A DNA stretch of 64,000 nucleotides from Strigamia acuminata (Eukaryota): assembly GCA_949358305.1 (NCBI GenBank), contig OX442314.1, positions 9,114,001 through 9,178,000 on the forward strand, written 5' to 3'. The notes beneath the pieces are model-generated. The model did no database searches, was not told where the DNA came from, and was given only the letters and a program-made list of their open reading frames with translations. The translations under genes and the position numbers were made by a program. Shown here one piece after another: positions 1-44,541 of this stretch. Position 1 is the first letter of the stretch. The number at the start of each line of letters is the position of its first letter.

Positions 1-1060
1 TGGTAGTTTCGTACCTGCCGTAAATCGAATGTGCGCAGGAAGTGGCAGCTAACACACTCTCAGATACTGTGCACCACACTAATATTTATTTGTGGCCGGG
101 TATCCCGAGCTGTAAAACTCGGGGACAGAATGTCCGGTAGTCGCGTCTGAACCAAAACCCAACGCGTGACCCGCCAACAATCGTGTTTTCACACGAAGGC
201 AAACGAATGCACGTCTCGTAGTGGCTCATAAGCAACCCCAAACTGTCGAGTTTGAACGAGGATGGGCGATTTACTCGTGCTTATACAACGCACGGGCCCT
301 AAACCCAACTCTAAACCTGACTTAATGCTTAATTAAAGCTAAAGCCCGAATGGCAGGCGGCTAAACTAAGCTAAACGCACGCGCAAGCGAAATGAAAGAC
401 ACAAACTTCGAACTTATGGCCAACAAATCCTGTTTGGCCTTGGATAACGCGTCACGGCGATAAAACATGAACAAAAAGGAGCAGAAAAACAAATGGTGAA
501 CGAGTGGTGTAAAACCGTGAGTTAACACGCGAAATGAAATGAAAGCCTGAAACCGTGTTGCAGAATTCCAGGGCGAATGCAAAGCTACAAGTGAGCTTCG
601 GAGTTAAACCTCAGCCATGAGCACCGGCTCCAAAGGAGCACCTACGCGTTCGGGATACTGAGATCAACTGAAGAAAAAGAGGAAAAATAGGGTGAGAGGT
701 AAACTTGGACTCAACCAAGCTTGACCAATCACGGAAGAGTCAAGAGCCAATCACCACTGTCGGTGCATACTGATGAGTATGACTGATGACGACGCGTGAT
801 GACCAGAATAGATATGCAAAGAAGTTTGCATCCAAATCATAAACGAAAGAGAAAAAACTAGGAGTAGATAAGAGAAAAGTGAGAGAATGAAGAGAAAGTT
901 AGGAGTGAGTAAGGGATAAGATAGATAGAAAATGAGGAAAACTCACGAATGAACATAAACAATACAACAACACAAGGTAAAGACAAATTAAGGTTTAATA
1001 CAACACAAACACGGGTTAACAATGCGTAAACTATACGCGTAGGAAACACGGGCCGTGACA
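1..1060 (-). mobile_element. Partial LTR of a second Ty3/gypsy copy (5' LTR or solo LTR; continues off the left edge)
   Basis: Reverse complement of the LTR at 1345-2477, with scattered substitutions and indels that are densest at ~850-1010. Its TGTCACGG terminus at 1060 abuts satellite DNA rather than a PPT. Confidence 0.93.
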
Positions 1061-1344
1061 AAGAAATTTCAATAAATATCAAGAAATTTCAATAAATATC
1101 AAGAAATTTCAATAAATATCAAGAAATTTCAATAAATATCAAGAAATTTCAATAAATATCAAGAAATTTCAATAAATATCAAGAAATTTCAATAAATATC
1201 AAGAAATTTCAATAAATATCAAGAAATTTCAATAAATATCAAGAAATTTCAATAAATATCAAGAAATTTCAATAAATATCAAGAAATTTCAATAAATATC
1301 AAGAAATTTCAATAAATATCAAGAAATTTCAATAAATATCAAGA
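1061..1344. repeat. 20-bp satellite (AAGAAATTTCAATAAATATC)n, ~14 units between two head-to-head LTRs
   Basis: Perfect tandem units read directly from the sequence. Confidence 0.98.
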
Positions 1345-2477
1345 TGTCACGGCCCGTGTTTCCTACGCGTACAGTTTACGCATTGTTAACCCGTGTTTGT
1401 TCCTATTAAACCTAATTTTGTCATCTTCTTACCTTTGTTGTTTTGTTTGTGTTTGATTCGTGAGTTTTCCTCATTTTCCTTCTATCTTATCTCTTACTCT
1501 CTCCTAACTTTCTCTTCATTCTCTCACTTTTCTCTTATCTACTCCTAGTTTTTCTTCTTTAGTTTATGATTTGGATGCAAACTTCTTTGCATATCTATTC
1601 TGGTCATCACGCGTCGTCATCAGTCATACTCATCAGTATGCACCGACAGTGGTGATTGGCTCTTGACTCTTCCGTGATTGGTCAGGCTTGGTTGAGTCCA
1701 AGTTTACCTCTCACCCTATTTTTCCTTTTTTGCTTCAGTTGATCTCAGTATCCCGAACGCGTAGGTGCTCCTTTGGAGCCAGTGCTCATGGCTGAGGTTT
1801 AACTCCGAAGCTCACTCGTGGCTTTGCTTTCGCCCTGGAATTCTGCAACACGGTTTCAGGCTTTCATTTCATTTCGCGTGTTAACTCACGGTTTTACACC
1901 ACTCGTTCACCATTTGTTTTCCTGCTCCTTTTTGTTCATGTTTTATCGCCGTGACGCGTTATCCAAGGCCAAACAGGATTTGTTGGCCATAAGTTTGAAG
2001 TTTGTGTCTTTCATTTCGCTTGCGCGTGCGTTTAGCTTAGTTTAGCCGCCTGCCATTCGGGCTTTAGCTTTAATTAAGCATTGAGTCAGGTTTAGAGTTA
2101 GGTTTAGGGCCCGTGCGTTGTATAAGCACGAGTAAATTGCCCATCCTCGTTCAAACTCGACAGTTTGGGGTTGCTTATGAGCCACTACGAGACGTGCATT
2201 CGTTTGCCTTCGTGTGAAAACACGATTGTTGGCGGGTCACGCGTTGGGTTTTGGTTCAGACGCGACTACCGGACATTCTGTCCCCGAGTTTTACAGCTCG
2301 GGATACCCGGCCACAAATAAATATTAGTGTGGTGCACAGTATCTGAGAGTGTGTTAGCTGCCACTTCCTGCGCACATTCGATTTACGGCAGGTACGCAAC
2401 TACCAGGGTGTGTGAATTTACTGTTTCGCGGCGTCTTTCAAACGCTTCTAAACCACCTAGACTCGCGATCCATCACA
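1345..2477 (+). repeat. 5' LTR of the gypsy element
   Basis: TGTCACGG...CATCACA; same length as 11554-12686 and no differences seen by eye. Confidence 0.97.
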
Positions 2478-2479
2478 CT

Positions 2480-2497
2480 TGGTGCCGAAACCCGGGA
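2480..2497 (+). other. Primer binding site complementary to the tRNA-Phe 3' end
   Basis: TGGTGCCGAAACCCGGGA, 2 nt after the LTR; complement of the metazoan tRNA-Phe(GAA) end ...UCCCGGGUUUCGGCACCA. Confidence 0.92.
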
Positions 2498-2653
2498 ATA
2501 TCCCGTAGCTTTTCGATTGCTAGCCGTATAAACTGTTTCCAGTGGGCTAGTAATCATTATTCGGAAAACAAAGGTCGAGTGGTATCGTTACTCGCCTTTT
2601 TTAGAGTGGATCATCCATTTGAGTTTTGCTGCTAAATTGCTTGAGTTGACGCA

Positions 2654-4762
2654 ATGGCAGAAGGAGGGCATCCTAAAGAGGATAACTCCAAGAGTGTGTG
2701 GCCTAGCTGGATGCGTAGAGTAGGGGAGCGCTTGTGTGATGAAACTCCACGGCGTCCTCTTGATGCGCGTCCTCCGAGAACCCGCTCAGAGTATGGCTTG
2801 CCCGTGGCAAGAGGCGGTGGGCCGCCGTACCTCTTGCGACCACACGGGGATGTCACACGAGTAAAGGTAGAGGATAAATCCACTTCAACGGATAGTACCT
2901 ACTGCCCGGACACTACTCCGTCTACGCGTGAGTCTCGTGTCGATGTGTCTGCTTCGGATCTTTTAACGCCCGTGCAACCAAATCCTTCGGCGCCACCTCA
3001 ACAAAGGAGTAGTCCTGAGGATAACGTCGAGGAGGGGGATGAAGAGGCTGGTCAACGGCCTCCGGAATGGCTGCCGTATCTGCAAAATGCGGAATTGGCC
3101 ATGAATGAGCGGATGGTCCGAGCATTAAACCAGTTTGGTCAGCATGTTGACTACCGACTGGGAAATTATAGAGATGAGACTCTTGTGGGGGTGAGACAAG
3201 TGGTTAGGGCCGAAATCGTGGCATTAGCTGTACAGCCCGAGGAGGAGGTAATTCCACCAGCTCAGCAAAGACCTCATAACCCTTTGCCTGGTGATGGACC
3301 TCGTTCTGACGGTCAGAGGGAACCTGGGGGAAGTGTTCAGTCTTCACGCATTCTGACGCCTAGCGAGTTGAACAGGCAAGGAATTGCAGTAGTAGGAAGG
3401 TTACAAGGGGATGTAAATCCTCGTTTACCTTCAAAAGAGAGACCATCGGACGTGACAGCTCGCGCGGGGTCTCGAATGGGTACGCCCTCACAATGTAACA
3501 GTGAGGTGATGAGGAGTATTATACGCTCGAAGTCGACAGCTGTTAGCTTGCCGGATACAGCAAGTGTTGATCGCGCAGCAGCTGCGCGAGGGGATTCGGT
3601 AAATACGCGTTTGCAACGGGCGCGGGTCGCTCAGGCAGCGGTAACGCCGACGCCCCGGCAGCGGCCGCAGACGCGATATGATCAATATGACTTGTCGCAT
3701 GTGAGGTCGGAACATGTGCCGATATTTGATGAGGAGGATCAATCCTATAATGCGGTCGAACGATTCCTTGCAAAATTGCGCGCACATTACATTATGACGC
3801 GCATTCCGGATGAGGCGTATATTGACTTGTTCATTCCGTTGGCGCTGTGTGGGAAGCCCTTAAATTGGTACCTGCACTTACGCCATAAACCAAAAACATG
3901 GGATGAATTTGTTGTGCGTTTCCGGAAACGTTATTCCCTCAAGGAGGCCGAAGCAACGGTCTACCTAACGGATGCCTGGCAGGAAGTAGGGGATGATACG
4001 GCCGAATTTCTGTGCGAAATCAGTCGTTACCTCGAAATGATAGGTATTCGGGGGGATGGGCAACAGTGGAATATGGCGAAACATCGCCTTCAACCGCAGA
4101 TAACGGATGCAATGACTCGGTACGGAGTCCGCTTCATGTCGCAGGCCATAGAGATGGGGCAGGAGGCTGACAGCGAATTGGCGTTGCGTTCTCTTCAGCA
4201 GTATAAGTTCGATGAGCGCGGAGTGAGAAGAGGTCCGGTGCCTCGACCTCAATCCAAGGATAAGGATAAGCAAGCTGTTAAGGCGACCAAAAAGGTGGTA
4301 GAGCCTGCCAAAACAAAGGCGGCAGAGAAGCCTCCGCCTGGTCGCTTTCAGTTTGACAAACGGAAATTGGTTGCGTTGGCGGAAGTGTTTGGGGCTACGA
4401 GTGAGGACCTGCAGAGTGTTGCTGGGCAGTCCGTTGTTAGTGTTGCACCTTCGAGAGTGCCAGAGCCGCAAATAAACGCGTCTGTAAAAGTCTCGGAGAA
4501 TAAGCCGACTCCGGCTGTGGGGGCGGCACAATGTGGACATTCTGCCCACACCTTCGCCAATACGGCTAACCCCCCAACAACACCGTTGCCACCCGGAGCT
4601 GAATGGGTGCGCAATCGGAAGGACAGATGGTACATGCGTGATATTGAAAAACGCATCGCATTATGTCCCCACTGCTTTAAGCCCTGGCAGTTTCCGGGAA
4701 ACGACCAGGGTCCACTGTCCAAACCATCCAACGGAAAGGCAGTGGACCCGAAACCCAAATAA
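2654..4762 (+). CDS. gag: Gag (702 aa) with a retrotransposon capsid-like domain
   Basis: Long ORF after the PBS. Capsid-like segment VPIFDEED...LALCGKPLNWYL...TWDEFVVRFRKRY; no canonical CCHC knuckle. Confidence 0.9.
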   Translation: MAEGGHPKEDNSKSVWPSWMRRVGERLCDETPRRPLDARPPRTRSEYGLPVARGGGPPYLLRPHGDVTRVKVEDKSTSTDSTYCPDTTPSTRESRVDVSASDLLTPVQPNPSAPPQQRSSPEDNVEEGDEEAGQRPPEWLPYLQNAELAMNERMVRALNQFGQHVDYRLGNYRDETLVGVRQVVRAEIVALAVQPEEEVIPPAQQRPHNPLPGDGPRSDGQREPGGSVQSSRILTPSELNRQGIAVVGRLQGDVNPRLPSKERPSDVTARAGSRMGTPSQCNSEVMRSIIRSKSTAVSLPDTASVDRAAAARGDSVNTRLQRARVAQAAVTPTPRQRPQTRYDQYDLSHVRSEHVPIFDEEDQSYNAVERFLAKLRAHYIMTRIPDEAYIDLFIPLALCGKPLNWYLHLRHKPKTWDEFVVRFRKRYSLKEAEATVYLTDAWQEVGDDTAEFLCEISRYLEMIGIRGDGQQWNMAKHRLQPQITDAMTRYGVRFMSQAIEMGQEADSELALRSLQQYKFDERGVRRGPVPRPQSKDKDKQAVKATKKVVEPAKTKAAEKPPPGRFQFDKRKLVALAEVFGATSEDLQSVAGQSVVSVAPSRVPEPQINASVKVSENKPTPAVGAAQCGHSAHTFANTANPPTTPLPPGAEWVRNRKDRWYMRDIEKRIALCPHCFKPWQFPGNDQGPLSKPSNGKAVDPKPK

Positions 4763-7700
4763 GTCGGACGTTGGAGGCTTTAGATAGCACAAGCGGTTGG
4801 ATGGTACCCCCTGCGTTGCAGAAGACCAGTACCACCGCTCTAGCGGCTGCTAAGCCGAAAATGACAAATTTCATTATGTTGTCACCACCCGAATTTTTGG
4901 CTTCCAAAGAGCCGAAATTGATAATCGGGTTGAAGGACCGTTGTCGGCGAGACGCGGCCTTTGTTAAAATCGCCTGGATCAATATCGAGTTCATTGCAAT
5001 GATGGACAGCGGTGCACAGACGTGCATAATGACCATGGCATTGTATGAAAAACTCGCAAAAGAGATAGGCATAGAAATGGTGAAACTGGACGAAACCATC
5101 CGGACAGCCGACAATCATATTACCAAAGTGGTTGGCTGTGCACAACTAGCCGTCCGTGCTCCTACGGCGGTAGTTTGCTTTACTTGCCTCATCATAGAGG
5201 AGGGATCTCAAGAGCTCCTCTTGGGGCTGGATTTCTGCAAGGCAGTTGGTCTTTGTACCGACCACGCCAACGAATACTGGTTCCTCTTAGGGGATGGCAC
5301 GAGGCACCCCTTCCTCACAGAAGAGCAAGCTAGGGCATCTGATCCAGTGATCTTATTCCCTTTAACAAAGGAACAACCTTCCCTTCCGGAGGGAATTGCG
5401 GTTAAGGGGCCCCCTCTTTACAACCTTCCGGCTTTGCGAAATCCGCCGGTCCCCAAGCCAGAGGAAACGGCGGTGCCCGTCAAGCTGGTCGGCCAAAAGG
5501 AGCGGGAACTGACCCCCGAGGTTCCTGCAAAGGAGGAGAAGGCGGAGGAGAAGCCTGTGGTTGCTACAAAACCACCAATTAGTGAAGCTAACTGCGTCTT
5601 GCTGGGCAAACGTAATTTTGAAGTGGAGTTATTTGAGCCTCCACACGAAGACAATCCTTGTATTGTCAAAGTGGTTGTTGCTCGGAGAGGGCAAGACGCT
5701 CAAAAATGGACATTCCTATGGTCACCTAAGAGACGGGAAAAAACCGCACGAAGGAACATCGTGCGAGTTACGCGTAAACCTGGGAAAAAGGCCATGTGTT
5801 TGAGTCAGATGCGTCGAGCCATTAAGTTGCGTAAAGCAAGAGTTAAAGCGGTGGCTAAACGAACGTGGGTTGAGACTGCAGATTCTCCGAGTGGAGAGAG
5901 AAATGTCGTCAACAACGTGGAGCCCTCTTCTGCTTGTCAAAAGGCGGAAGGTACTCCAAGACAGCATGATGTTAATTTCGTCCAATACATCCCAAACAGA
6001 GATCCTACCAACCTCGCTTGGGTGTATGATCAGCTGTGTAACCAGTTGGAGCCAAAACGCATTAATCACTTAATGGATGCGTTGAAACCAGTTGCTCATA
6101 TCTTTCGTGAGGAACTGGGGCTCTGTAATAACACACAGTTTGAGGTGAATCTGAAGCCTGATTTCCGACCTATTCATGTCCCGGTACGTCCGGTGAATCC
6201 GGCAAAAAGGGAAATAATCGATGCCTATATCGACCAAAAGTTGGCGCAAGGAGTAATCAAGCGCTCCAAAAGCGACTGCGCCGTGGCGCCCGTAGTTGTC
6301 CCCAAAAAGGACGGACGCTGGCGCTGCGCAATGGATTTTAGGCCGATCAACTCCCAAACTTTGCCTGATGTTTACCCCCTCCCAGATATCGACAACATCT
6401 TTGCATATCTGGGTGGGGCAAAATGGTTTTCCATCATCGACGGAAGGGAAGCGTTCCACCAAATAGGGGTCCGACCTGGAGATGAACGATATCTCGCGTT
6501 TATCACCCACAGGGGACTCTTTGAGTATACGCGTATGCCCTTCGGTCCGATCAATGGCCCCGCCACCTTACAAAGGGCCATGAATTTGACTCTAGCTGAG
6601 CATCTCTACAAGTTCGTCTTTGTGTACATCGACGACATAATCGTGTTTAGTAAGACCTTCGAAGAGCATGTGACCCACTTGCAAAAAGTGCTCACTTTGC
6701 TCGACCAAGCGGGGTTTACAATGAACGCAGGAAAAACGGAGTTGTGCAAGACAAGTCTTGAGGTGCTCGGACATATTGTCGAGGAGGGACTTATTCGTCC
6801 TAACCCAAAGAAGACCGACGCGATCAGCAAGTACCCGGCCCCCACTAACTTGAAGGAATTACAACGCTTCAAGGGTATGATCGGGTACTACTCGTCGTTC
6901 TTTCCAGGATATTCCAAGACCTGCGAAGTCTTTCGAGTTCTTATGCGTAAAAATGCGCCATGGAACTGGACGGCGGCACACCAGGCAGCTTTCGAGTATC
7001 TCAAAAATCAAGTGTCGTTATCTACCTTGCACAGGAATTTCCCGGACTGGAGTAAACCTTACATCTTACAAACCGATGCGAGTTATTCTGGTCTGGGAGC
7101 CGCGTTGATGCAAATAAACAATAACGGCGTACGCGTCCCAATTGCCTTTGCGTCGCGGGCCTTAAACAGTGCAGAGAAAAACTATACGACGACGGAAATT
7201 GAGTGCCTGGCCGCCGTCTGGGCCGTAAAACGCTTTAGAGCATACCTCGAGTTGATGGATTTCTATCTTGAGAGTGACCACAAGTCTTTAACATGGCTGT
7301 GGGCCCAGCGCGAGCCAAAGGGCCGACTGGCGAGATGGATTCTTTCGCTGTCGGAATATCGATTCACATTCCTCCACTGTAGTGGGACAAAGAATCGGGT
7401 TGCCGATGCGTTGAGTCGGGCGCCAGTTGACCCACCGATCGAGCTGGATGACGAAGACTGTCCAGCGTTGGATGACACGTACTACTGTGCGTACTTCGAT
7501 GATTTCCACGACTGGCCAGTACTCCAAATGGAAGAGTTAGATGAGGTGACTCATTGGAAATCATCCAACTGTAAAATCGTTAGAGCGGTAACAATGCGTA
7601 AGCAGAAACGTGCGTTCCTGGCGAGATTGAACGCCTTGTCGGCTACGGCAGTGGATGTATGTCCGGTGGAGGACGAGCCCCCTCTAAAAAGAGGAAGGGG

Positions 7701-9807
7701 ACGTCCACGGAAAAATCCCATTGCAAAGGGGCCGACTCAGGCGGGACCCTTGCCGGGAGCACAGCCTGCTCTGCCAAAGTCGGACGAAGAATCTGTGGCG
7801 GTGTCTTTGCCTAAGGAAGACGTTCCTGTAAAAAGGAAAAGAGGTCGTCCGCGGAAGACTCCGGCCAGCGGGGATATGACGCAGCCTAAATCTTTACCCG
7901 TAACGCGTCCTATTCCACCAACTTCGGAAGAAGAGTCAGGTGCAGTTTCTTTGCCAATTGACGTTCCTGAGAAGAGAAAACGGGGGCGACCAAAAAAGGT
8001 TGTGGAGAAGCGACCGGTCGGAAGACCGAAGAAGAAAACTCCCATCATCCTCGATCGCTCTACGGGCTCGGAAGCCAGTGAAATGTCTTTGGACAGTGAG
8101 GAGCTGCCGGGAGACACGGACTCCGAAGAGTTTCAAATTCCTGTGATTCCACGGGACTTGGCACCGAGGACGCAACCACGGCGAGATTTGGCCTCACCAA
8201 CACCCTCTATTGATGCGGAGTTGCTTGACCACTCTGAGCACTCGTCTGACGAGAGTTTCTACTCACTTCCGGCGGATCATCCGACAATTGAGATTCTCCC
8301 AACACAGAAAGCCGTTAAAGAAGCCCAACTAGCCGATGAATGGTCTAAGGGACTTATATTATATCTCAATTCAGGGTCTCTGCCGCCAGGTGAGATGGAG
8401 GCTGCAGAACTTAAGAAACGAGCGGTGGACATGGCGTTACACCGTGGTCTGCTCTGCAAGTTTCCACCAACTAAGATCGGTCAACGAGCTCCTACGCGTC
8501 GTATTTACCTCCCTCAATCCCTTCGTTACAAGTATTTTCATTGCTTACATTTCCCACCAACCTCTGGCCATCTCGGGATCGAGAAAACACTAATGCGTCT
8601 AAAAACACGTGTGTTTTGGCCGGGGATGAAAAAAGATGTAGCAAATTGGATTAAAGTTTGTGAACCTTGTCAAAGGGCGAAGGTCGAGCGGAGGCTACCG
8701 TATGGCGAGATGGAGACCGCGAAACCGAGACGGTTGTTTCGGACCATTTACGTCGACTACTTCGGGAAAAAGTTGAAGTCCACTGGCGGACACTGCTACG
8801 CGTTCGTAATGGTGGATGCAGCCAGTCGCTGGGTGGACGTGAGACTCACCGAAAAGGCAGACGTTTCTACAACAGTGAAACAACTTAAAAAGTTCACTTA
8901 TAGATGGGCTTATCCAAAAACTATAATAAGTGATAACGCCCCAACCTTTCGCTCTGCCAAGTTCCAGGCACAGTGCGCCGAAATGGGAATGGTAAATAAA
9001 TATATTTCCGCCTATCATCCGCAAGGGAACTTGGCGGAAAGACTGAATCAATCTTTAAAAACGTGCATCCTCGCGTATATAGATGAACATACGCGTTGGG
9101 ATAAGCACATTGGTTCTTTCATTTTAGCAATTAATACTGCTTATCAGACCTCACTCAAATTTTCACCTTACATGATGGTCACAGGACAAGAAGCACGTTT
9201 TCCAGGAGATGTCGACTCTGACACTGACGACGGAGAACCCTTACCGCCAGATGAATCGCGTTTTCTTCATCGATACTTATTACGCATCCGTGAAGAGGCG
9301 AGGAAGAACTTGGATGCCGCCCATCTACGCCATAAGCGTTGGTATGACCGGAAACGGCGGCCCCATACGTTTAAACCCGGGGATTGGGTCACCGTCAAAA
9401 GTCGTGTTTTGTCATCAACTGATAAACAAATAAGTTCGGGTTTCCAACACCGGACTGAAGGCGTTTATATGATTCATCGACTCCTGGGACCAAATACCGT
9501 GCTCTTGATGGACCAGGACGGGAAGATTTCCCAACCTATTCATGTGTCGGATCTTCGCCATTGGTACCGGGCTGAAGAGCCGGAAATTGAAGTTTCCGAT
9601 GTCTCCAGTGTGGCTAGTGGGGCAGAGGATCACGAGGAATTGGATTCTGAGTTGGAAATTGATGAGGACATTCCCCAAGAAGACTTGGATGATATTTCTG
9701 CACGCGTTGTTAAATTCCAAACTGAAGTCCGTAGTATTTGCGTCGACTTCGAAGAAAGGAATAAACGCGTCAAAACATCGAAATTAGCGGCAGAAATCAT
9801 CTCCTAA
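4681..9807 (+). CDS. pol: Pol polyprotein (protease, RT, RNase H, AT-hook/acidic linker, integrase), probably expressed as a Gag-Pol frameshift fusion
   Basis: MDSGAQ protease; WRCAMDFR, RMPFG and YIDD RT motifs; QTDAS, TEIECLA and ESDHKSL RNase H motifs; HHCC (HFPPTSGH...CEPC), YVDYF, SDNA and GNLAER integrase motifs; no internal stops. Confidence 0.97.
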   Translation, partial: ALAVSGKRPGSTVQTIQRKGSGPETQISRTLEALDSTSGWMVPPALQKTSTTALAAAKPKMTNFIMLSPPEFLASKEPKLIIGLKDRCRRDAAFVKIAWINIEFIAMMDSGAQTCIMTMALYEKLAKEIGIEMVKLDETIRTADNHITKVVGCAQLAVRAPTAVVCFTCLIIEEGSQELLLGLDFCKAVGLCTDHANEYWFLLGDGTRHPFLTEEQARASDPVILFPLTKEQPSLPEGIAVKGPPLYNLPALRNPPVPKPEETAVPVKLVGQKERELTPEVPAKEEKAEEKPVVATKPPISEANCVLLGKRNFEVELFEPPHEDNPCIVKVVVARRGQDAQKWTFLWSPKRREKTARRNIVRVTRKPGKKAMCLSQMRRAIKLRKARVKAVAKRTWVETADSPSGERNVVNNVEPSSACQKAEGTPRQHDVNFVQYIPNRDPTNLAWVYDQLCNQLEPKRINHLMDALKPVAHIFREELGLCNNTQFEVNLKPDFRPIHVPVRPVNPAKREIIDAYIDQKLAQGVIKRSKSDCAVAPVVVPKKDGRWRCAMDFRPINSQTLPDVYPLPDIDNIFAYLGGAKWFSIIDGREAFHQIGVRPGDERYLAFITHRGLFEYTRMPFGPINGPATLQRAMNLTLAEHLYKFVFVYIDDIIVFSKTFEEHVTHLQKVLTLLDQAGFTMNAGKTELCKTSLEVLGHIVEEGLIRPNPKKTDAISKYPAPTNLKELQRFKGMIGYYSSFFPGYSKTCEVFRVLMRKNAPWNWTAAHQAAFEYLKNQVSLSTLHRNFPDWSKPYILQTDASYSGLGAALMQINNNGVRVPIAFASRALNSAEKNYTTTEIECLAAVWAVKRFRAYLELMDFYLESDHKSLTWLWAQREPKGRLARWILSLSEYRFTFLHCSGTKNRVADALSRAPVDPPIELDDEDCPALDDTYYCAYFDDFHDWPVLQMEELDEVTHWKSSNCKIVRAVTMRKQKRAFLARLNALSATAVDVCPVEDEPPLKRGRGRPRKNPIAKGPTQAGPLPGAQPALPKSDEESVAVSLPKEDVPVKRKRGRPRKTPASGDMTQPKSLPVTRPIPPTSEEESGAVSLPIDVPEKRKRGRPKKVVEKRPVGRPKKKTPIILDRSTGSEASEMSLDSEELPGDTDSEEFQIPVIPRDLAPRTQPRRDLASPTPSIDAELLDHSEHSSDESFYSLPADHPTIEILPTQKAVKEAQLADEWSKGLILYLNSGSLPPGEMEAAELKKRAVDMALHRGLLCKFPPTKIGQRAPTRRIYLPQSLRYKYFHCLHFPPTSGHLGIEKTLMRLKTRVFWPGMKKDVANWIKVCEPCQRAKVERRLPYGEMETAKPRRLFRTIYVDYFGKKLKSTGGHCYAFVMVDAASRWVDVRLTEKADVSTTVKQLKKFTYRWAYPKTIISDNAPTFRSAKFQAQCAEMGMVNKYISAYHPQGNLAERLNQSLKTCILAYIDEHTRWDKHIGSFILAINTAYQTSLKFSPYMMVTGQEARFPGDVDSDTDDGEPLPPDESRFLHRYLLRIREEARKNLDAAHLRHKRWYDRKRRPHTFKPGDWVTVKSRVLSSTDKQISSGFQHRTEGVYMIHRLLGPNTVLLMDQDGKISQPIHVSDLRHWYRAEEPEIEVSDVSSVASGAEDHEELDSELEIDEDIPQEDLDDISARVVKFQTEVRSICVDFEERNKRVKTSKLAAEIIS
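4696..4777 (+). other. Programmed -1 ribosomal frameshift signal (slippery heptamer plus stem/pseudoknot)
   Basis: G GGA AAC at 4696-4702 in the gag frame. The pol frame is -1 and open from 4681. Stem 4708-4719 pairs with 4738-4749; loop TCCAACG (4727-4733) is complementary to CGTTGGA (4769-4775). Confidence 0.85.
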
Positions 9808-10160
9808 TCGTGTCAATGTTTTTGTTTATTCTTTGACAATTTTTAGTGTATTTTGTTTATTTTCTCCGGTTATTGCACCTTTTCATGTTCATTCTGCGCA
9901 TGTCGGGACTCAAGTTCGCTATTTGTGATTGCTAATAAGCAATTTGCTCAAGTGGTGGCGCTGAACGTCATTGGTCAGCTGACCAATGAGTCAGTTTTCA
10001 CACATGCGTGTGACCGCCATTGTTTTTCCACTTGTTGAGCAACGCGTATGCCTCGTGTAAGCGGGCGGAGATTGAAAACGCGTCGAGGCGATACACTTGA
10101 GCGCCTGACGGTAGAGGATTTGAGCCTGTTAAGTGTGCTGGTAGCCTTTGAGATTTTATC

Positions 10161-10943
10161 ATGGCGGACCAGGACAGCAGTTCCGAGGGGGACGAATCAC
10201 TCGATTTTACATCGGATGAGGAGTTTTATGAGGATCTTAGGGGAAAGGAGTTAGCCCTTTTGGAGAAGTTGGACGCGATCGATTGGTTCCACCCGGAGGA
10301 CAACCCATATCTTGGCAGTATTACTGGATCGATCAAGGACCGAGCGATGTCCCGGCGGCTGGGTTGGTCAACAGATTTGTCGGGCCCCCAATCACAGTTG
10401 CCCATCCGACATCCGGATTTGGTGGCAACGGGTCCACGTCGACGATGTTTCGGAGACGCGTCACCTTTCAACATGCTTTCGATCCCTCGAGCCACCGACT
10501 GGGAGACGGCTATACGACACGTGGCAGCGAGGCAGCGGTCCGATGGAAACCGGATGCGATTCCTGGACTACCAGGATTTTCCAACTACATTTTGGGCGCG
10601 GAAGGGATTTAACGAAATTTTCCCCTTCGGCACCCTCGACTGGCAGTGTCCAACGCGTCGACGAGCGACGTCGTATATTCAGACAGACCCGGATTTGTGG
10701 CGGCAGTTTTTCTACGCCATCGCCCGCACCGAGCACGGATGGCCTGAATCGCAGGCCCATGCCATTTTGGAACTTCGTAACGGACAAATCCTCTTCCTGG
10801 AAAGTCTCATCGCAGACGTACTTACGCGTTACCATCCGCGTACGGAGAAGCAGATGGAGGATGTGCTGGTTTATCGCGTCGTTGGATTGGTGGAGGAGCT
10901 TCTCCAGCTGATGTTCCCGGACGGCGCCAGTGATAGTGACTAG
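10161..10943 (+). CDS. Extra ORF3 of the gypsy element (260 aa, unknown function, not env-like)
   Basis: ATG-initiated GC-rich ORF between pol and the 3' LTR. Acidic N-terminus; no visible signal peptide or transmembrane segment. Confidence 0.65.
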   Translation: MADQDSSSEGDESLDFTSDEEFYEDLRGKELALLEKLDAIDWFHPEDNPYLGSITGSIKDRAMSRRLGWSTDLSGPQSQLPIRHPDLVATGPRRRCFGDASPFNMLSIPRATDWETAIRHVAARQRSDGNRMRFLDYQDFPTTFWARKGFNEIFPFGTLDWQCPTRRRATSYIQTDPDLWRQFFYAIARTEHGWPESQAHAILELRNGQILFLESLIADVLTRYHPRTEKQMEDVLVYRVVGLVEELLQLMFPDGASDSD

Positions 10944-11540
10944 CCAGGAAGTACCATTGCGAACTTGGTGAACGGTTTCATGAACGTGACTTTTGTTTTG
11001 TGCGCAACTTCTAGGTTCAAATGGATAAGTCTCCATTTGGGCGCGTGTTTAGTTTTATTGTTTGTGTTTAGCATTTCAAGTGATATTTGTGAACATTATA
11101 TTTTACCCGACTGTGATATATAATTTATTTCGTTTGTTTTCCAGTGTTTTCCGCGCCTGTTGTACCTATCCGCGTGCCCGGGAGACGCCTCATTCCTCCT
11201 CCGAGAATCATGTGCCGGTGGAGATGACCCCCTAAATTTTCCTCTCGGTCGTGTGGATGGGTGCAATGAGCGTAGGAGTTCCAGCAATCAACGATTGCTT
11301 GGAAGAGTAAGTTTGTGTTAGTTTTAGCTTTATTCCAAGTGTCAATTTGCCTTACTGTGATTTGAGTTTATGTGTTAACGCGTCTCACGCGATTGTTTTG
11401 ATTTGCATCATGTTCATTTTTGATTTTGATTCGTTTATTTTTGATTGTGTTTAATTCGCTAATGTTGCGAGTGATTATGTTCTTGATTTTGATTTGATTG
11501 TATCGTTTCATTACTTCATCAAACAGAGTAATAAAACTCT

Positions 11541-11553
11541 GGCTGTGGGGGCG
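11541..11553 (+). other. Polypurine-tract-like G-rich element
   Basis: GGCTGTGGGGGCG immediately 5' of the 3' LTR. Confidence 0.6.
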
Positions 11554-12686
11554 TGTCACGGCCCGTGTTTCCTACGCGTACAGTTTACGCATTGTTAACC
11601 CGTGTTTGTTCCTATTAAACCTAATTTTGTCATCTTCTTACCTTTGTTGTTTTGTTTGTGTTTGATTCGTGAGTTTTCCTCATTTTCCTTCTATCTTATC
11701 TCTTACTCTCTCCTAACTTTCTCTTCATTCTCTCACTTTTCTCTTATCTACTCCTAGTTTTTCTTCTTTAGTTTATGATTTGGATGCAAACTTCTTTGCA
11801 TATCTATTCTGGTCATCACGCGTCGTCATCAGTCATACTCATCAGTATGCACCGACAGTGGTGATTGGCTCTTGACTCTTCCGTGATTGGTCAGGCTTGG
11901 TTGAGTCCAAGTTTACCTCTCACCCTATTTTTCCTTTTTTGCTTCAGTTGATCTCAGTATCCCGAACGCGTAGGTGCTCCTTTGGAGCCAGTGCTCATGG
12001 CTGAGGTTTAACTCCGAAGCTCACTCGTGGCTTTGCTTTCGCCCTGGAATTCTGCAACACGGTTTCAGGCTTTCATTTCATTTCGCGTGTTAACTCACGG
12101 TTTTACACCACTCGTTCACCATTTGTTTTCCTGCTCCTTTTTGTTCATGTTTTATCGCCGTGACGCGTTATCCAAGGCCAAACAGGATTTGTTGGCCATA
12201 AGTTTGAAGTTTGTGTCTTTCATTTCGCTTGCGCGTGCGTTTAGCTTAGTTTAGCCGCCTGCCATTCGGGCTTTAGCTTTAATTAAGCATTGAGTCAGGT
12301 TTAGAGTTAGGTTTAGGGCCCGTGCGTTGTATAAGCACGAGTAAATTGCCCATCCTCGTTCAAACTCGACAGTTTGGGGTTGCTTATGAGCCACTACGAG
12401 ACGTGCATTCGTTTGCCTTCGTGTGAAAACACGATTGTTGGCGGGTCACGCGTTGGGTTTTGGTTCAGACGCGACTACCGGACATTCTGTCCCCGAGTTT
12501 TACAGCTCGGGATACCCGGCCACAAATAAATATTAGTGTGGTGCACAGTATCTGAGAGTGTGTTAGCTGCCACTTCCTGCGCACATTCGATTTACGGCAG
12601 GTACGCAACTACCAGGGTGTGTGAATTTACTGTTTCGCGGCGTCTTTCAAACGCTTCTAAACCACCTAGACTCGCGATCCATCACA
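11554..12686 (+). repeat. 3' LTR of the gypsy element
   Basis: Direct repeat of 1345-2477. Confidence 0.97.
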
Positions 12687-14725
12687 AAGAAATTTCAATA
12701 AATATCAAGAAATTTCAATAAATATCAAGAAATTTCAATAAATATCAAGAAATTTCAATAAATATCAAGAAATTTCAATAAATATCAAGAAATTTCAATA
12801 AATATCAAGAAATTTCAATAAATATCAAGAAATTTCAATAAATATCAAGAAATTTCAATAAATATCAAGAAATTTCAATAAATATCAAGAAATTTCAATA
12901 AATATCAAGAAATTTCAATAAATATCAAGAAATTTCAATAAATATCAAGAAATTTCAATAAATATCAAGAAATTTCAATAAATATCAAGAAATTTCAATA
13001 AATATCAAGAAATTTCAATAAATATCAAGAAATTTCAATAAATATCAAGAAATTTCAATAAATATCAAGAAATTTCAATAAATATCAAGAAATTTCAATA
13101 AATATCAAGAAATTTCAATAAATATCAAGAAATTTCAATAAATATCAAGAAATTTCAATAAATATCAAGAAATTTCAATAAATATCAAGAAATTTCAATA
13201 AATATCAAGAAATTTCAATAAATATCAAGAAATTTCAATAAATATCAAGAAATTTCAATAAATATCAAGAAATTTCAATAAATATCAAGAAATTTCAATA
13301 AATATCAAGAAATTTCAATAAATATCAAGAAATTTCAATAAATATCAAGAAATTTCAATAAATATCAAGAAATTTCAATAAATATCAAGAAATTTCAATA
13401 AATATCAAGAAATTTCAATAAATATCAAGAAATTTCAATAAATATCAAGAAATTTCAATAAATATCAAGAAATTTCAATAAATATCAAGAAATTTCAATA
13501 AATATCAAGAAATTTCAATAAATATCAAGAAATTTCAATAAATATCAAGAAATTTCAATAAATATCAAGAAATTTCAATAAATATCAAGAAATTTCAATA
13601 AATATCAAGAAATTTCAATAAATATCAAGAAATTTCAATAAATATCAAGAAATTTCAATAAATATCAAGAAATTTCAATAAATATCAAGAAATTTCAATA
13701 AATATCAAGAAATTTCAATAAATATCAAGAAATTTCAATAAATATCAAGAAATTTCAATAAATATCAAGAAATTTCAATAAATATCAAGAAATTTCAATA
13801 AATATCAAGAAATTTCAATAAATATCAAGAAATTTCAATAAATATCAAGAAATTTCAATAAATATCAAGAAATTTCAATAAATATCAAGAAATTTCAATA
13901 AATATCAAGAAATTTCAATAAATATCAAGAAATTTCAATAAATATCAAGAAATTTCAATAAATATCAAGAAATTTCAATAAATATCAAGAAATTTCAATA
14001 AATATCAAGAAATTTCAATAAATATCAAGAAATTTCAATAAATATCAAGAAATTTCAATAAATATCAAGAAATTTCAATAAATATCAAGAAATTTCAATA
14101 AATATCAAGAAATTTCAATAAATATCAAGAAATTTCAATAAATATCAAGAAATTTCAATAAATATCAAGAAATTTCAATAAATATCAAGAAATTTCAATA
14201 AATATCAAGAAATTTCAATAAATATCAAGAAATTTCAATAAATATCAAGAAATTTCAATAAATATCAAGAAATTTCAATAAATATCAAGAAATTTCAATA
14301 AATATCAAGAAATTTCAATAAATATCAAGAAATTTCAATAAATATCAAGAAATTTCAATAAATATCAAGAAATTTCAATAAATATCAAAAAATTTCAATA
14401 AATATCAAGAAATTTCAATAAATATCAAGAAATTTCAATAAATATCAAAAAATTTCAATAAATATTAAGAAATTTCAATAAATGTTCAGTAATCTAAAGA
14501 AATAACAAATATTGAGAAGAAATACTAGTATTACTAAATATTGAGAAATATTGAGAAATATCAAGATATATTGAGAAATATCAAGAAATATTGAGAAATA
14601 TTGAGAAATATCAACAAATATTTAGAAATATTGAGAAATATTGAGAAATATCAACAAATATTTAGAAATATCAAGAAATATTAATAAATATTGAGAAGTA
14701 AGAAATATTAATAAATATTGAAAAA
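12687..14725. repeat. 20-bp satellite (~90 units, to ~14482) decaying into a 10-bp repeat (TTGAGAAATA/TCAAGAAATA), within intron 2 of a Star-like gene
   Basis: Read directly. The 20-mer is a dimer of two related 10-mers, TCAAGAAATT and TCAATAAATA. Confidence 0.98.
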
Positions 14726-14792
14726 TTTCAATAAAAATAGACATTTTTGATAGATGTCAACAAGAATTGGCAAATTCCAAATAATGACTTAC

Positions 14793-15156
14793 AGTTTTGA
14801 AAATTCTTGAACTCAAATTGGCTAACGCAACCGATCCTGGATCCGAAACAAATGGATCCTCTAATTTATATGGATAGGAATTAGGTTTAATCAAAACCTC
14901 ACTTCTAATGTATTCAATCAGCAATGGGTCTAGCTGCTCTCTTCCAGCCATATCAAAATCATTCCACTTTCTTTTCAATTCTCTTGAAACACAACCTGAA
15001 AACAATCCATAACAAATCATCAAAAAAAAAGAATACACATAAATATGCATTTTCCATACTAATATTTTGACTGACAATCCAAGAATACATCAAAATGGTA
15101 ACAACAAGAAGAGGTATAAATGATACCAGTATTTTCTTCTTCATTAATTTGTGCAT
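14793..15156 (-). CDS. Star-like/FkbM methyltransferase-domain gene B', exons 1-2 (15156-15060, 14995-14793); remaining exons expected beyond the left edge
   Basis: Same translation as exons 1-2 of the complete gene at 32049-35194. GT/AG boundaries are in phase and there is an N-terminal TM helix. Confidence 0.85.
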
Positions 15157-15544
15157 GATTGATTATGTTTTTCCAGGAAAGATTCAGAGTTCTAGTATTC
15201 CTGTTTGTGTGCACATCCTGCTGTGTTTGGTTTGTCTGTTAGGTGTGGATAGTATTTTATCTACATTTTATAGTCATTTTATTATGAAAATCTTTTAATA
15301 TCCCACCATAAAATGCAGACTAGGATTGATGTTGATGAACTTGGATTTGCCTTTATTTGACTTTCCCAGATATCAAGTGTCGACGGAGTGTACCGTTGAC
15401 TAAAACCTAAAACCATTACTATACAAAATAAAATCACAACTAAATCTGTAAAATGTTGTCAAGGATTCAGGATAGAAGAAATGGCAACAGCGTATGGTGA
15501 TGTTGGGAGCCTAAAATGAATTTTTTATTGCCTAAAATGACTTT

Positions 15545-15684
15545 GACACGCTAGGTGCGATGCGATTCGCGCCGCCTCGCAAAGCGATTTTGACGTCATC
15601 AAAAATGACGTTAGGTCACACCTGATTGGCTGCAATCAAAATCGCAGACCAAAAAGTACGCGCCGCCATCGCTCCTAGTGTGTC
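15545..15684. mobile_element. Short MITE-like element (duplicate at ~35583-35722)
   Basis: Imperfect terminal inverted repeat GACACGCTAGGTGCGATG / CATCGCTCCTAGTGTGTC; GC-rich island in AT-rich DNA. Confidence 0.55.
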
Positions 15685-15792
15685 TCTAGCATAATAGTGA
15701 ATCTTTTATTGTCAAATGTGAATTTTTTTGGACTAAAAAGGAAATTTTAAATACCGGTATGGTTTTTTTTTGTGCAAAAATGAAAGAAAAAA

Positions 15793-32048: not shown

Positions 32049-35000
32049 TTAAAGATATTTAAGATATTTCTTTATGAAGATAAAATCATAAACATTCTTT
32101 TCCAACGTGATGTAGCCCATTGTTTTCATGAAAGCTTCTAGTTCCTCGGGTTTTTTGTTGTTGTAATGTTCTACTGCAAAAACATTGATGTTGACCTTTT
32201 GAAAGGGAATGGTCTTCAACACTGGCAACTCAAATCCTTCAACGTCCAGCACGAAGTAATCGATGTTCGTGAGATTTGCAGCATTCAACAAGGAATACAC
32301 TGGGAAACAGTCAACCAGATACGAACCTGAATATGTAACGTTATTTTCTCCCAATTTACTCTGCATCCCGTTTGATGTCAAAATCATCTGTAAAACACAA
32401 ATCATCGTTATGCGCATTCAAATTTCAGTTTTTTCTGTTTTTAGTGTTTCGGGAAACAGAATGGAGACCGAAAACAGCCATAAACCATCCTCAAAAAATG
32501 CATAAATATACTCCAAACCCATACAACGTGGTCCTAACTCCTATTGGTTGAGCCGGATTACGCCTAACTGTGGACTATGCTCTACTACGCGTGAAAAGTA
32601 GTTCTGTTTATTTTCAATGAATTTCAGTGTAAAAAGTGACTAGAATTGTTTCTACTGTTTACAGAAACACAACAAATTATTTAAAAAGAAACTTTATGTG
32701 GTCCCGATTGCATATTAACAAACTACAGGAGTGACTAATACATCTACCGGAATGATTAACGTAGGAAGGGCAAGTTCTGCTCAAATTGCGCTCACCTCGC
32801 TTTAACTGGGTCAAACAAAGCAAAACAAGCGAAACAAATCAAACTAACACCCAGCACACAGACGATAAATTCAAATTTTCATGGCCGTTCAAACTATTGA
32901 TGCGTTAGTCATTCCTGGCCAGGAAATCAGCACAGGGATTCCTGAAGCGCCTGCTGAAATTTGGCTGGACAATTGGCGATAAGTTTTGTAAGTCCAAGTA
33001 GAGTGCAATTGCATATAAACTATACAGTATGATGTTTGTTATTACTTTTTCTGTTTTATTGTGAGGGCTAAGACAAGCCTGCATCATGTAGGATTTACGA
33101 TTCGAAAGCACCAACGAATAGAATTGAACAGGATGCGGTTCCACGAGAAGTCCTGTCCAGCCTAGATATCGTTCGAGGTAGATGGTCATTGAATGAGACT
33201 CCGGGTGGTATGCACCAGCTTCAAAAAAAATCCCATTTTTTTTCTAATTTGATAAAACAATTTATATAAATTGCAAGAAAAGCTGATAAATCTTTGTTAA
33301 ATTTCAATAAAATCTGAGAAATTATTGATAAATTTAAAATTTTATGAAATTTTAAGAAATATCAAGAAATATCAAGAAACATCAAGAAATTTCAATAAAT
33401 ATCAAGAAATTTCAATAAATATCAAGAAATTTCAATAAATATCAAGAAATTTCATTAAATATCAAGAAATTTCAATAAATATCAAGAAATTTCAATAAAT
33501 ATCAAGAAATTTCAATAAATATCAAGAAATTTCAATAAATATCAAGAAATTTCAATAAATATCAAGAAATTTCAATAAATATCAAGAAATTTCAATAAAT
33601 ATCAAGAAATTTCAATAAATATCAAGAAATTTCAATAAATATCAAGAAATTTCAATAAATATCAAGAAATTTCAATAAATATCAAGAAATTTCAATAAAT
33701 ATCAAGAAATTTCAATAAATATCAAGAAATTTCAATAAATATCAAGAAATTTCAATAAATATCAAGAAATTTCAATAAATATCAAGAAATTTCAATAAAT
33801 ATCAAGAAATTTCAATAAATATCAAGAAATTTCAATAAATATCAAGAAATTTCAATAAATATCAAGAAATTTCAATAAATATCAAGAAATTTCAATAAAT
33901 ATCAAGAAATTTTAATAAATATCAAGAAATTTCAATAAATATCAAGAAATTTCAATAAATATCAAGAAATTTCAATAAATATCAAGAAATTTCAATAAAT
34001 ATCAAGAAATTTCAATAAATATCAAGAAATTTCAATAAATATCAAGAAATTTCAATAAATATCAAGAAATTTCAATAAATATCAAGAAATTTCAATAAAT
34101 ATCAAGAAATTTCAATAAATATCAAGAAATTTCAATAAATATCAAGAAATTTCAATAAATATCAAGAAATTTCAATAAATATCAAGAAATTTCAATAAAT
34201 ATCAAGAAATTTCAATAAATATCAAGAAATTTCAATAAATATCAAGAAATTTCAATAAATATCAAGAAATTTCAATAAATATCAAGAAATTTCAATAAAT
34301 ATCAAGAAATTTCAATAAATATCAAAAAATTTCAATAAATATCAAGAAATTTCAATAAATATCAAGAAATTTCAATAAATATCAAGAAATTTCAATAAAT
34401 ATCAAGAAATTTCAATAAATATCAAGAAATTTCAATAAATATCAAGAAATTTCAATAAATATCAAGAAATTTCAATAAATATCAAGAAATTTCAATAAAT
34501 ATCAAGAAATTTCAATAAATGTTCAGTAATCTAAAGAAATAACAAATATATGAGAAGAAATACTAGTATTACTAAATATTGAGAAATATTGAGAAATATC
34601 AAGATATATTGAGAAATATCAAGAAATATTGAGAAATATTGAGAAATATCAACAAATATTTAGAAATATTGAGAAATATTGAGAAATATCAACAAATATT
34701 TAGAAATATCAAGAAATATTAATAAATATTGAGAAGTAAGAAATATTAATAAATATTGAAAAATTTCAATAAAAATAGACATTTTTGATAGATGTCAACA
34801 AGAATTGGCAAATTCCAAATAATGACTTACAGTTTTGAAAATTCTTGAACTCAAATTGGCTAACGCAACCGATCCTGGATCCGAAACAAATGGATCCTCT
34901 AATTTATATGGATAGGAATTAGGTTTAATCAAAACCTCACTTCTAATGTATTCAATCAGCAATGGGTCTAGCTGCTCTCTTCCAGCCATATCAAAATCAT

Positions 35001-35194
35001 TCCACTTTCTTTTCAATTCTCTTGAAACACAACCTGAAAACAATCCATAACAAATCATCAAAAAAAAAGAATACACATAAATATGCATTTTCCATACTAA
35101 TATTTTGACTGACAATCCAAGAATACATCAAAATGGTAACAACAAGAAGAGGTATAAATGATACCAGTATTTTCTTCTTCATTAATTTGTGCAT
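32049..35194 (-). CDS. Star-like/FkbM methyltransferase-domain gene B (exons 35194-35098, 35033-34831, 33243-33046, 32387-32049; 278 aa)
   Basis: In-phase GT/AG exons, TM helix and FkbM-family motifs. Confidence 0.88.
33355..34765. repeat. Uninterrupted paralogue of the 20-bp satellite (~57 units) plus 10-bp repeat tail, in intron 2 of gene B
   Basis: Read directly. Confidence 0.98.
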
Positions 35195-35830
35195 GATTGA
35201 TTATGTTTTTCCAGGAAAGATTCAGAGTTCTAGTATTCCTGTTTGTGTGCACATCCTGCTGTGTTTGGTTTGTCTGTTAGGTGTGGATAGTATTTTATCT
35301 ACATTTTATAGTCATTTTATTATGAAAATCTTTTAATATCCCACCATAAAATGCAGACTAGGATTGATGTTGATGAACTTGGATTTGCCTTTATTTGACT
35401 TTCCCAGATATCAAGTGTCGACGGAGTGTACCGTTGACTAAAACCTAAAACCATTACTATACAAAATAAAATCACAACTAAATCTGTAAAATGTTGTCAA
35501 GGATTCAGGATAGAAGAAATGGCAACAGCGTATGGTGATGTTGGGAGCCTAAAATGAATTTTTTATTGCCTAAAATGACTTTGACACGCTAGGTGCGATG
35601 CGATTCGCGCCGCCTCGCAAAGCGATTTTGACGTCATCAAAAATGACGTTAGGTCACACCTGATTGGCTGCAATCAAAATCGCAGACCAAAAAGTACGCG
35701 CCGCCATCGCTCCTAGTGTGTCTCTAGCATAATAGTGAATCTTTTATTGTCAAATGTGAATTTTTTTGGACTAAAAAGGAAATTTTAAATACCGGTATGG
35801 TTTTTTTTTGTGCAAAAATGAAAGAAAAAA

Positions 35831-43897: not shown

Positions 43898-44541
43898 TCA
43901 ACGATGTTTCAAAATTCCTTTCTTCGCCAAAAGATCCGCAGCCTCGTTGCCCGGATTTCCGGAATGCGCCGCCACGTATTCCTAAAAAAACAAATTCAAT
44001 TTTAAAAAAAAAAAACTTAAAAATCAAATCGATTTACCCAATTTACGCGTATTCCCTTGGACGCCTCAATCAACTCCTCAAAATCCGTGCGATTTTCAAC
44101 CGGCTCGCCATTAATCGTTCTCCAGCCATATTTACGCCAGCCGTCCACCCACTGAGTCATGCCTAAAAAGTCAAAACAAAAATTAAAAAATAATTGAAAA
44201 AAAATCATATTAAGTCGCCTACTTTTTATGAGAAATTCGCTGTCGCAAATTATCGTCATTTCAGGCAAATCTTGTTCCCCGCCTTGAACAATGGCGCGCA
44301 CCGCCGCTTGAATCTCGGCCCTGTTGTTCGTTTGGCGTCCTTTCAGCGCCTCACTCACATTTCTTCAATTAAAAAATACAGTTTACTACATTAAATTGAT
44401 TAATTAACCATTTTTCACTTACCGATAATCATTCGGACCCCAATAGACTCCGATACCAGCCTTCGCGTTGTATTGACCGTTATTTTCGCAAGCGCCGTCG
44501 GTATAAACCTCGGGACCACCACTGCTTTGCCTCCTGCTCAT
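43898..44541 (-). CDS. RNase H1-like protein, catalytic domain only (exons 44541-44423, 44362-44223, 44162-44038, 43981-43898; 155 aa)
   Basis: VYTDGAC, AGIGVYWG, QTNNRAEI, CDSEFLI, W..GW, AHSGNPGNEAADLLAK; all four catalytic acidic residues present; in-phase GT/AG junctions. Confidence 0.93.

What the first reader, a model, noticed from the sequence alone, without database searches (positions are those of the whole stretch)
1051..1350. Two independent gypsy insertions, in opposite orientation, at the same base of a 20-bp satellite unit
Seen: the plus element sits in ...AATATC[AAGA]-element-[AAGA]AATTTC. The diverged minus-strand LTR ending at 1060 is also followed by AAGAAATTTC, the same phase of the unit, only 284 bp away. 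The site is pseudo-symmetric (ATATC-AAGA-AATTT versus reverse complement AAATT-TCTT-GATAT). The two LTRs differ in sequence, so these are separate events. Inference: the family prefers this satellite and a specific position in it. A chance phase match is about 1 in 20 and n is only 2.
Basis: partly seen in the sequence, partly recalled or inferred. Interest (0 to 1): 0.85.

Follow-up and report, generated by a model that had tools for sequence, protein, structure and literature searches.

The report
AT-hook gypsy hits minisatellite twice
Two differing copies of one jumping gene sit back to back at the same four letters of a 20-letter repeat; most other copies appear to lie elsewhere, so the repeat is likely a hot spot that reiterates a target the element prefers, likely helped by AT-gripping 'hook' motifs in front of its integrase.

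Summary
An intact gypsy element (1345-12686, identical LTRs, AAGA duplicated at both ends) and an inverted, 96%-alike LTR (1-1060) abut the same AAGA of a 20-bp unit, 284 bp apart. A short-read contig reproduces the left junction letter for letter at about single-copy depth, so it is no assembly artefact.

The reading 'this family targets this satellite' is too strong. The repeat is a small local minisatellite (roughly 25-140 units by word depth), likely intronic. The junction accounts for about 1 in 26 LTR starts in the one run that shows it, and other LTR ends abut non-satellite DNA. Those flanks start AAG-TATTT, against AAG-AAATTT in the array, which points to a local target motif that occurs once per unit. 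The claimed symmetry is not special (13 of 20 phases score as well).

New here: the Pol linker before the integrase zinc finger carries three AT-hooks plus a partial fourth (Pfam cut-off passed), and two are kept in a diverged Strigamia relative. Their role in targeting is untested, as is the left element's far junction.

The parts
1..1060 (-). Left LTR, cut by the window start; its U3 start (TGTCAC) faces the array; the 5' LTR of a minus-strand element or a solo LTR
   Evidence: 96.4% to the plus LTR; 27 substitutions in 1,055 columns; junction contig in X2
1061..1344 (+). 14.2 perfect copies of the 20-bp unit AAGAAATTTCAATAAATATC (15% GC; two half-units 8 of 10 alike); 1061-1064 AAGA is the presumed duplication of the left element, 1341-1344 AAGA that of the plus element
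1345..2477 (+). 5' LTR of the intact element, 1,133 bp
   Evidence: identical to the 3' LTR
2480..2497 (+). Primer-binding site, 2 bp after the LTR; tRNA-Phe-like (assignment recalled, not tested)
   Evidence: sequence; no tRNA gene in the window to test against
2654..4762 (+). gag, open
   Evidence: weak Retrotrans_gag hit, E 0.0068, under the cut-off
4681..9807 (+). pol, open, -1 frame to gag; order protease, RT, RNase H, long linker, integrase (gypsy order); no chromodomain hit
7687..8034 (+). Three RGRP AT-hooks and one VGRP partial hook (Pol residues about 1003-1118) in a linker of about 360 residues between RNase H and the integrase zinc finger
   Evidence: Pfam AT_hook PF02178, 22 bits against cut-off 17.4, 4 stretches; positions; linker length; hooks 1 and 2 kept in P0251
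10161..10943 (+). Third ORF, 260 aa from ATG, no family; no envelope family hit
11541..11553 (+). G-rich tract before the 3' LTR (plus-strand primer site, inferred)
11554..12686 (+). 3' LTR
12687..14735 (+). Rest of the array: starts with the duplicated AAGA; 87 of 90 units perfect to 14486, then decayed units
14818..15115 (-). Host exon flanking the array (FkbM methyltransferase gene cluster, inferred from the paralogous block)
   Evidence: block 13300-16990 is 98.5% alike to 33337-37029; translations and GT/AG ends; Pfam PF05050 on the exon at 32052-32399
33354..34523 (+). Paralogous, uninterrupted array (58 units) between two exons of the duplicated gene: the empty site
   Evidence: flanking host DNA differs at 8 of 1,925 letters

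Best explanation
Two differing copies of one gypsy family abut the same AAGA of an AT-rich minisatellite in opposite orientations, likely as two separate integrations, because each unit likely holds one good match to the integrase's local target (AAG, then A or T, then an A/T tract) and because AT-hooks in front of the integrase likely hold the complex on AT-rich arrays. Shown: both junctions, the 4-bp duplication of the plus element, the LTR differences, the hooks, and non-satellite flanks that begin AAG-TATTT. Inferred: (1) the hooks stay on the mature integrase as an N-terminal extension; (2) they bind the minor groove of the phased AAATTT/AAATAT tracts on either side of the site, so that some 100 units in a row act as a sink; (3) the catalytic core then picks the one phase that fits; (4) a two-fold intasome uses an asymmetric site in either orientation. 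The family is not confined to this repeat: it would favour such sites wherever they occur.
For: Same phase twice, 1 in 20 by chance. AAG falls at 1 of 20 phases and on one strand; AAG[AT]A[AT]TT is 68 times denser in the array than in 41.9 kb of host DNA of the window. Loose ends: other LTR starts continue AAG then TATTT into non-satellite DNA (1 contig in X1, 2 each in X2 and X3); the unselected letters +5, +7, +8 equal the array's. Under uniform insertion only 0.001-0.03 3-kb bins genome-wide would hold two copies (12-50 elements, 150-300 Mb assumed). Hooks pass the Pfam cut-off. P0251 keeps hooks 1 and 2 at 16 of 18 residues while the rest of the linker is 53 of 196 identical. Only 6 of 393 measurable relatives have any RGRP in this linker, 1 has two, and the median linker is 82 residues against 361. 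Family-specific target motifs reaching beyond the duplication are the rule for LTR elements (PMC3276498, passages); repeat insertion at preferred sites is documented (PMC5932611, passages).
Against: n is 2 in the array and 2-3 outside it. The outside flanks were laid against a stretch starting AAG, so they are an ascertained sample; they were not counted against all flanks, and 10 of 28 loose-end rows were not shown. The X1 flank and the X2/X3 cell agree at 17 of 30 letters, so they may descend from one old insertion; one carries an LTR start with 2 differences in 39 letters. The motif is drawn from these same sites. The 7-letter motif alone gives only 3e-5 to 2e-3 for two hits in this array, so a longer motif, array-level attraction or luck is needed. 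The site is not palindromic, whereas published motifs are. 5.6 kb of other AT-rich arrays and the 58-unit paralogue are empty. No binding was tested; the basic motifs also read as nuclear-localisation signals (recalled); protease cut sites are unknown.
Confidence: 0.45

Rival explanations
1. Same two insertions and the same local target preference, but the hooks play no part in targeting: they serve nuclear import or cDNA binding, and the array is hit because it repeats the motif or is bent or nucleosome-poor.
For: Motifs such as KRKRGRPRK overlap a classical basic import signal (recalled). RGRP motifs recur at the integrase tail in 9 of 145 HMMER relatives and in unrelated clades with no known AT targeting. 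Bendable DNA alone biases integration (PMC5053271, passages).
Against: The GRP core, not only the basic residues, is conserved in P0251; three to four copies exceed what import would need (inference).
Confidence: 0.2
2. Chance in a permissive region: a redundant, duplicated gene cluster tolerates young insertions, two fell into a 2-kb array, and the phase match is a 1-in-20 coincidence picked out of a very large scan.
For: A third young element (Pao, identical LTRs, 5-bp duplication ACTTA) sits 4.5 kb away. Most family copies appear to lie elsewhere. The outside flanks are ascertained.
Against: The uniform expectation is 0.001-0.03 bins genome-wide before the phase term; the shared letters after AAG were not selected for.
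Confidence: 0.22
3. One reading: the family is a dedicated parasite of this satellite with a fixed site, like R1/R2 in rDNA or Tal1 in centromeric repeats.
For: Two of two insertions in the array share the phase.
Against: The junction contig is single-copy, about 1 in 26 genomic LTR starts in X2; non-satellite flanks exist in 3 of 3 runs; the repeat is only some 25-140 units.
Confidence: 0.06
4. The two junctions are not independent integrations: one arose from the other by inversion or conversion, or by a misjoin of haplotypes across the perfect array.
For: The spacer is a perfect repeat that could hide a join; no listed contig spans it.
Against: An inverted copy would invert the flank too, and it does not. 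The LTRs differ at 27 sites that are live variants. The left junction exists in short-read contigs. A haplotype join would still leave two same-phase events.
Confidence: 0.07

Closest known systems
Ty3/gypsy LTR retrotransposons with 4-bp duplications and family-specific target motifs (Drosophila 412/mdg1, gypsy and Idefix clades; PMC3276498, passages read)
   Same: Domain order, TG..CA LTRs, 4-bp duplication, AT-rich target reaching beyond the duplication
   Different: Site AAGA/AAGT is not the ATAT or TATA core and is not palindromic; the integrase groups only with Strigamia proteins on a long branch (100/100); multi-hook linker
Double insertion at preferred sites (McGurk and Barbash 2018, PMC5932611, passages read)
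   Same: Two copies of one family at equivalent sites, including inverted LTR pairs
   Different: Here the two sites are 14 units apart in a repeat, not one site used twice
CopiaMBD of Strigamia and spiders (PMC6673714, passages read) and chromoviruses
   Same: An LTR element carrying an extra DNA- or chromatin-reading module proposed to steer integration; CopiaMBD is from the genus that holds the nearest named relatives
   Different: Gypsy, not Copia; short AT-hooks before the zinc finger, not a methyl-CpG domain or a C-terminal chromodomain; binding untested here; 'hook' occurs 0 times in that paper's main text
Tal1 and other centrophilic LTR elements in CEN178 (PMC11735389, abstract and passages read)
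   Same: LTR elements inserted in tandem repeats, specificity set by the integrase region
   Different: Tal1 follows CENH3 chromatin in large centromeric arrays; this repeat is a 1-2 kb intron-like minisatellite and holds a small share of the copies
LEDGF/p75 tethering of lentiviral integrase (PMC5053271, passages read)
   Same: AT-hook motifs on the path between integrase and target DNA
   Different: There the hooks are on a host protein; here they are encoded in Pol

Membership tests
Ty3/gypsy LTR retrotransposon | Pol order protease, RT, RNase H, integrase | tested here: met
   Pfam hits at 104-187, 540-700, 763-893, 1278-1447
Ty3/gypsy LTR retrotransposon | Direct LTRs TG..CA, primer site, purine tract, short target duplication | tested here: met
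Errantivirus (envelope-bearing gypsy) | env ORF with a fusion-protein family | tested here: not met
   Third ORF has no Pfam hit at E up to 10 and no Atlas hit at 0.9 or more
Chromovirus | Chromodomain at the integrase C-terminus | tested here: not met
   No chromodomain among Pfam hits on residues 1278-1708 at E up to 10
AT-hook protein (PF02178) | RGRP core flanked by basic residues, score above the curated cut-off | tested here: met
   22 bits against 17.4, 4 stretches; P0251 scores 14.1, under the cut-off
AT-hook protein (PF02178) | Binds the minor groove of AT-rich DNA | not testable with these tools
   needs a binding assay
Repeat-specific retroelement (R1/R2-like or Tal1-like targeting) | Most copies lie in the target repeat | tested here: not met
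   junction at single-copy depth among some 40-55 LTRs in X2; non-satellite flanks in 3 of 3 runs; contig depth is a rough measure
Repeat-specific retroelement (R1/R2-like or Tal1-like targeting) | Fixed position in the unit | tested here: inconclusive
   2 of 2 at one phase; junctions at other phases would mostly not have been laid
LTR element with palindromic target-site motif | Motif symmetric about the duplication | tested here: inconclusive
   this site has 3 of 7 pairs, not above other phases; a family motif needs many flanks
Named gypsy clade (Osvaldo, 412/mdg1, Mag and others) | Groups with reference elements on an RT tree | not tested
   no named references were fetched; the integrase tree of 40 of 373 rows shows only a clade with Strigamia proteins

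The most novel reading that the evidence does not exclude
A centipede-type gypsy lineage has built a multi-AT-hook arm onto the front of its integrase that docks the intasome on phased A-tract minisatellites and sets the insertion register to a single base, a self-encoded DNA-shape tether; hook motifs gained again and again in other gypsy clades would make this an overlooked general targeting module beside chromodomains.
Probability: 0.25. Interest if true: 0.78.

Novelty: new variant of a known kind. Interest (0 to 1): 0.48.

Why it matters
How LTR retrotransposons choose sites is understood for a handful of tethers (chromodomains, host transcription factors, a captured methyl-CpG domain). 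AT-hooks encoded in Pol would be another, cheap to evolve and easy to spot in sequence. A perfect 20-bp array is also a natural ruler: every insertion reports its register, so a few dozen junctions from existing reads would test target choice at single-base resolution. If hooks steer copies into intronic AT-rich minisatellites, the element gains low-cost landing sites, and the host gains long inverted repeats inside introns. If not, this is an ordinary target-site preference seen twice.

Tried and rejected
No genome is held, so copies could not be tabulated directly. The LTR start gave 0 matches in metagenome contigs; the integrase alignment gave no confirmed locus among 273 and 86 pattern matches in metagenome and viral contigs. 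Symmetry of the site was tested and rejected as special. Inverted duplication was rejected because the array is not inverted. No copy of the unit (up to 2 mismatches, either strand) lies inside the element, so carrying or templating the repeat is not supported. Absences in contigs are weak and not used as evidence: no contig across the left junction was listed for X1 or X3; no contig across the plus element's 5' junction was evident (1 overrun per run, at the far end in X1 and X3, not shown for X2); the X2 contig runs unbroken through two 31-mers that a plus-type 3' junction would share. Atlas searches on the third ORF and on the linker gave only hits under 0.9. P0356 and P0316 are close relatives whose records lack the hook region, so they say nothing on it. 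No structure or complex was predicted: the linker is low-complexity and the partner would be DNA. Earlier scan notes held nothing for this place or this LTR.

Full report
What is there. The window opens inside a minus-strand LTR (1-1060), crosses 284 bp of a perfect 20-bp repeat, and enters an intact gypsy element, 1345-12686. Its LTRs are identical over 1,133 bp, AAGA stands at both ends, and gag, pol and a third ORF are open. Pfam places protease, RT, RNase H and integrase in gypsy order. The left LTR is 96.4% alike, with 27 substitutions in 1,055 columns, 14 of them in the first 220 bp. Both junctions fall at the same letter of the unit, and the array keeps its orientation throughout. The two U3 ends face each other across the spacer.

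Is the left junction real, and are the events separate? One search found three runs that hold the element, 3 of 5 listed, from two studies. Laying their contigs on 1021-1109 gave, in X2, a 56-bp piece across the junction with no difference, at depth 238.5 against 232.7 and 304 for host contigs. It is short of the tool's 31-letter rule on each side, and X2 may be the source sample, but it argues against a misassembly. At sites where the two LTRs differ, both letters occur in the runs, and the left letter is often the commoner (1449: 37,872 of 38,743 in X2; 1685: 564 of 564 in X1). An inversion would have flipped the flank. Two integrations by two current variants is the simplest reading.

Is it a satellite-targeting family? 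Probably not. Word depth of the unit over single-copy depth gives 23-46, 83-108 and 119-141 units in X1, X2 and X3, no more than the 154 perfect units in this window; AT-rich DNA may be under-read, and the tool warns that contig depth is no copy number. The repeat is thus a local minisatellite. It lies between two exons of an FkbM-type methyltransferase gene in a recently duplicated cluster, and the sister array at 33354-34523 is empty. LTR depth suggests 23-63 LTRs and 12-25 full elements, and the junction is about 1 in 26 genomic LTR starts in X2. Other LTR starts run into non-satellite DNA in 3 of 3 runs.

Is there a site preference? The symmetry argument fails: 3 of 7 pairs, matched or beaten by 13 of 20 phases. 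The better clue is: the non-satellite flanks that were listed begin AAG, as the array does, and go on TATTT where the array has AAATT (1 contig in X1, 2 each in X2 and X3; 18 of 28 loose-end rows shown). AAG occurs at one phase of the unit and on one strand, and AAG[AT]A[AT]TT is 68-fold denser in the array than in the window's host DNA, 50 against 0.74 per kb. A preference of that kind fixes the phase. The caveats are heavy. The flanks were fished with a stretch starting AAG; the X1 flank and the X2/X3 cell share 17 of 30 letters and may come from one old insertion; the motif is drawn from the same few sites. Nor is the 7-letter motif enough: it gives 3e-5 to 2e-3 for two hits in this array, against 1e-8 to 5e-7 for uniform insertion, or 0.001-0.03 such bins genome-wide (genome size assumed from contig totals). 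Something more is needed: a longer motif, attraction to the array as a whole, or luck in a region that also took a young Pao element 4.5 kb away.

A candidate for the extra pull. Between RNase H and the integrase zinc finger, Pol has a linker of about 360 residues with three RGRP motifs and one VGRP. It passes Pfam's AT-hook cut-off. The nearest named relatives are Strigamia maritima proteins at 64-88% over matched parts, which suggests a geophilomorph centipede host (inference). One of them, P0251, keeps hooks 1 and 2 at 16 of 18 residues in a linker otherwise 53 of 196 identical. Among 393 relatives with a measurable linker (of 432 proteins held), the median length is 82, 6 have an RGRP there and 1 has two; three of the four searches drew words from the query, two of them favouring such motifs, and the HMMER set alone gives 1 of 142. 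On an integrase tree (40 of 373 rows, chosen by score or by label) the element groups with the Strigamia proteins and one unnamed protein (100/100), apart from a second clade with linker hooks (P0119, P0135) and a third with tail hooks. So hooks recur in gypsy integrases, but this multi-hook arm is rare. The unit places A-tracts (AAATAT, AAATTT) 4-6 bp either side of the centre of AAGA, every 10 bp, the kind of DNA that AT-hooks bind (recalled). That the arm stays on the integrase, binds the array and steers insertion is inference; an import signal is a live alternative.

Against the literature. Family-specific, AT-rich, palindromic target motifs are the rule for LTR elements (PMC3276498, passages), and repeated use of preferred sites yields tandem and inverted pairs (PMC5932611, passages). 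Elements steered by an added reader are known: chromoviruses, and CopiaMBD in Strigamia (PMC6673714, passages). Tal1 enters centromeric repeats through CENH3 chromatin (PMC11735389, abstract and passages). A review notes microsatellites as landing pads (PMC12477314, passages). Five searches for AT-hooks with retrotransposon terms (listings only, and one search listed 30 of 166) showed no title or abstract start on hooks encoded in an LTR element's Pol; the one hit I read concerns LEDGF (PMC5053271, passages). The library lacks most subscription papers and I opened no supplements, so this is no proof of novelty. An earlier scan note reports a hook behind the chromodomain of fungal chromoviruses (unchecked).

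Verdict. The family does not live in this repeat; the repeat more likely reiterates a site the integrase likes. That much is a known kind of behaviour seen on an unusually clean ruler. The hooks are the part worth following, and a flank table from the genome would settle both questions. Interest 0.48; new variant of a known kind.

Noticed in passing
window 1-2477: The two LTRs form an inverted repeat of at least 1,060 bp at 96% with a 284-bp spacer, likely inside a host intron; a read-through transcript could fold into long double-stranded RNA and feed silencing of the family.
   Followed up: no
window about 17180-23080: Young Pao/BEL element on the minus strand with identical LTRs of about 300 bp and a 5-bp duplication ACTTA; the empty site is in the duplicated block near 37035; its coding region is split by one in-frame stop between ORFs 20195-22924 and 17453-20194.
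   Followed up: partly
window 13300-42700: Tandem cluster of FkbM-type (Methyltransf_21) genes on the minus strand with a recent duplication of about 20 kb (0.4-1.2% diverged) over older paralogues at 75-85%.
   Followed up: partly
window 16700-62700: At least 13 further AT-rich minisatellites, most with periods of 20-22 or 30-31 bp (two or three helical turns), 5.6 kb in all, none holding this LTR; a genome rich in phased A-tract arrays.
   Followed up: partly
window 10161-10943: Third ORF of the gypsy element, 260 aa with an acidic start, no Pfam or Atlas assignment; unknown accessory gene.
   Followed up: partly
window 43604-46359: Inverted repeat of about 1,170 bp at 95% with a spacer of about 415 bp; possibly a foldback or other DNA element.
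   Followed up: no
window 47605-49332: Open frame of 575 codons on the minus strand built largely of 6-bp and 9-bp repeats, no Pfam hit.
   Followed up: no
proteins P0119, P0135, P0245, P0127, P0031: RGRP motifs recur in unrelated gypsy Pol proteins, right after RNase H in one clade and at the integrase tail in another (9 of 145 in the HMMER set).
   Followed up: partly
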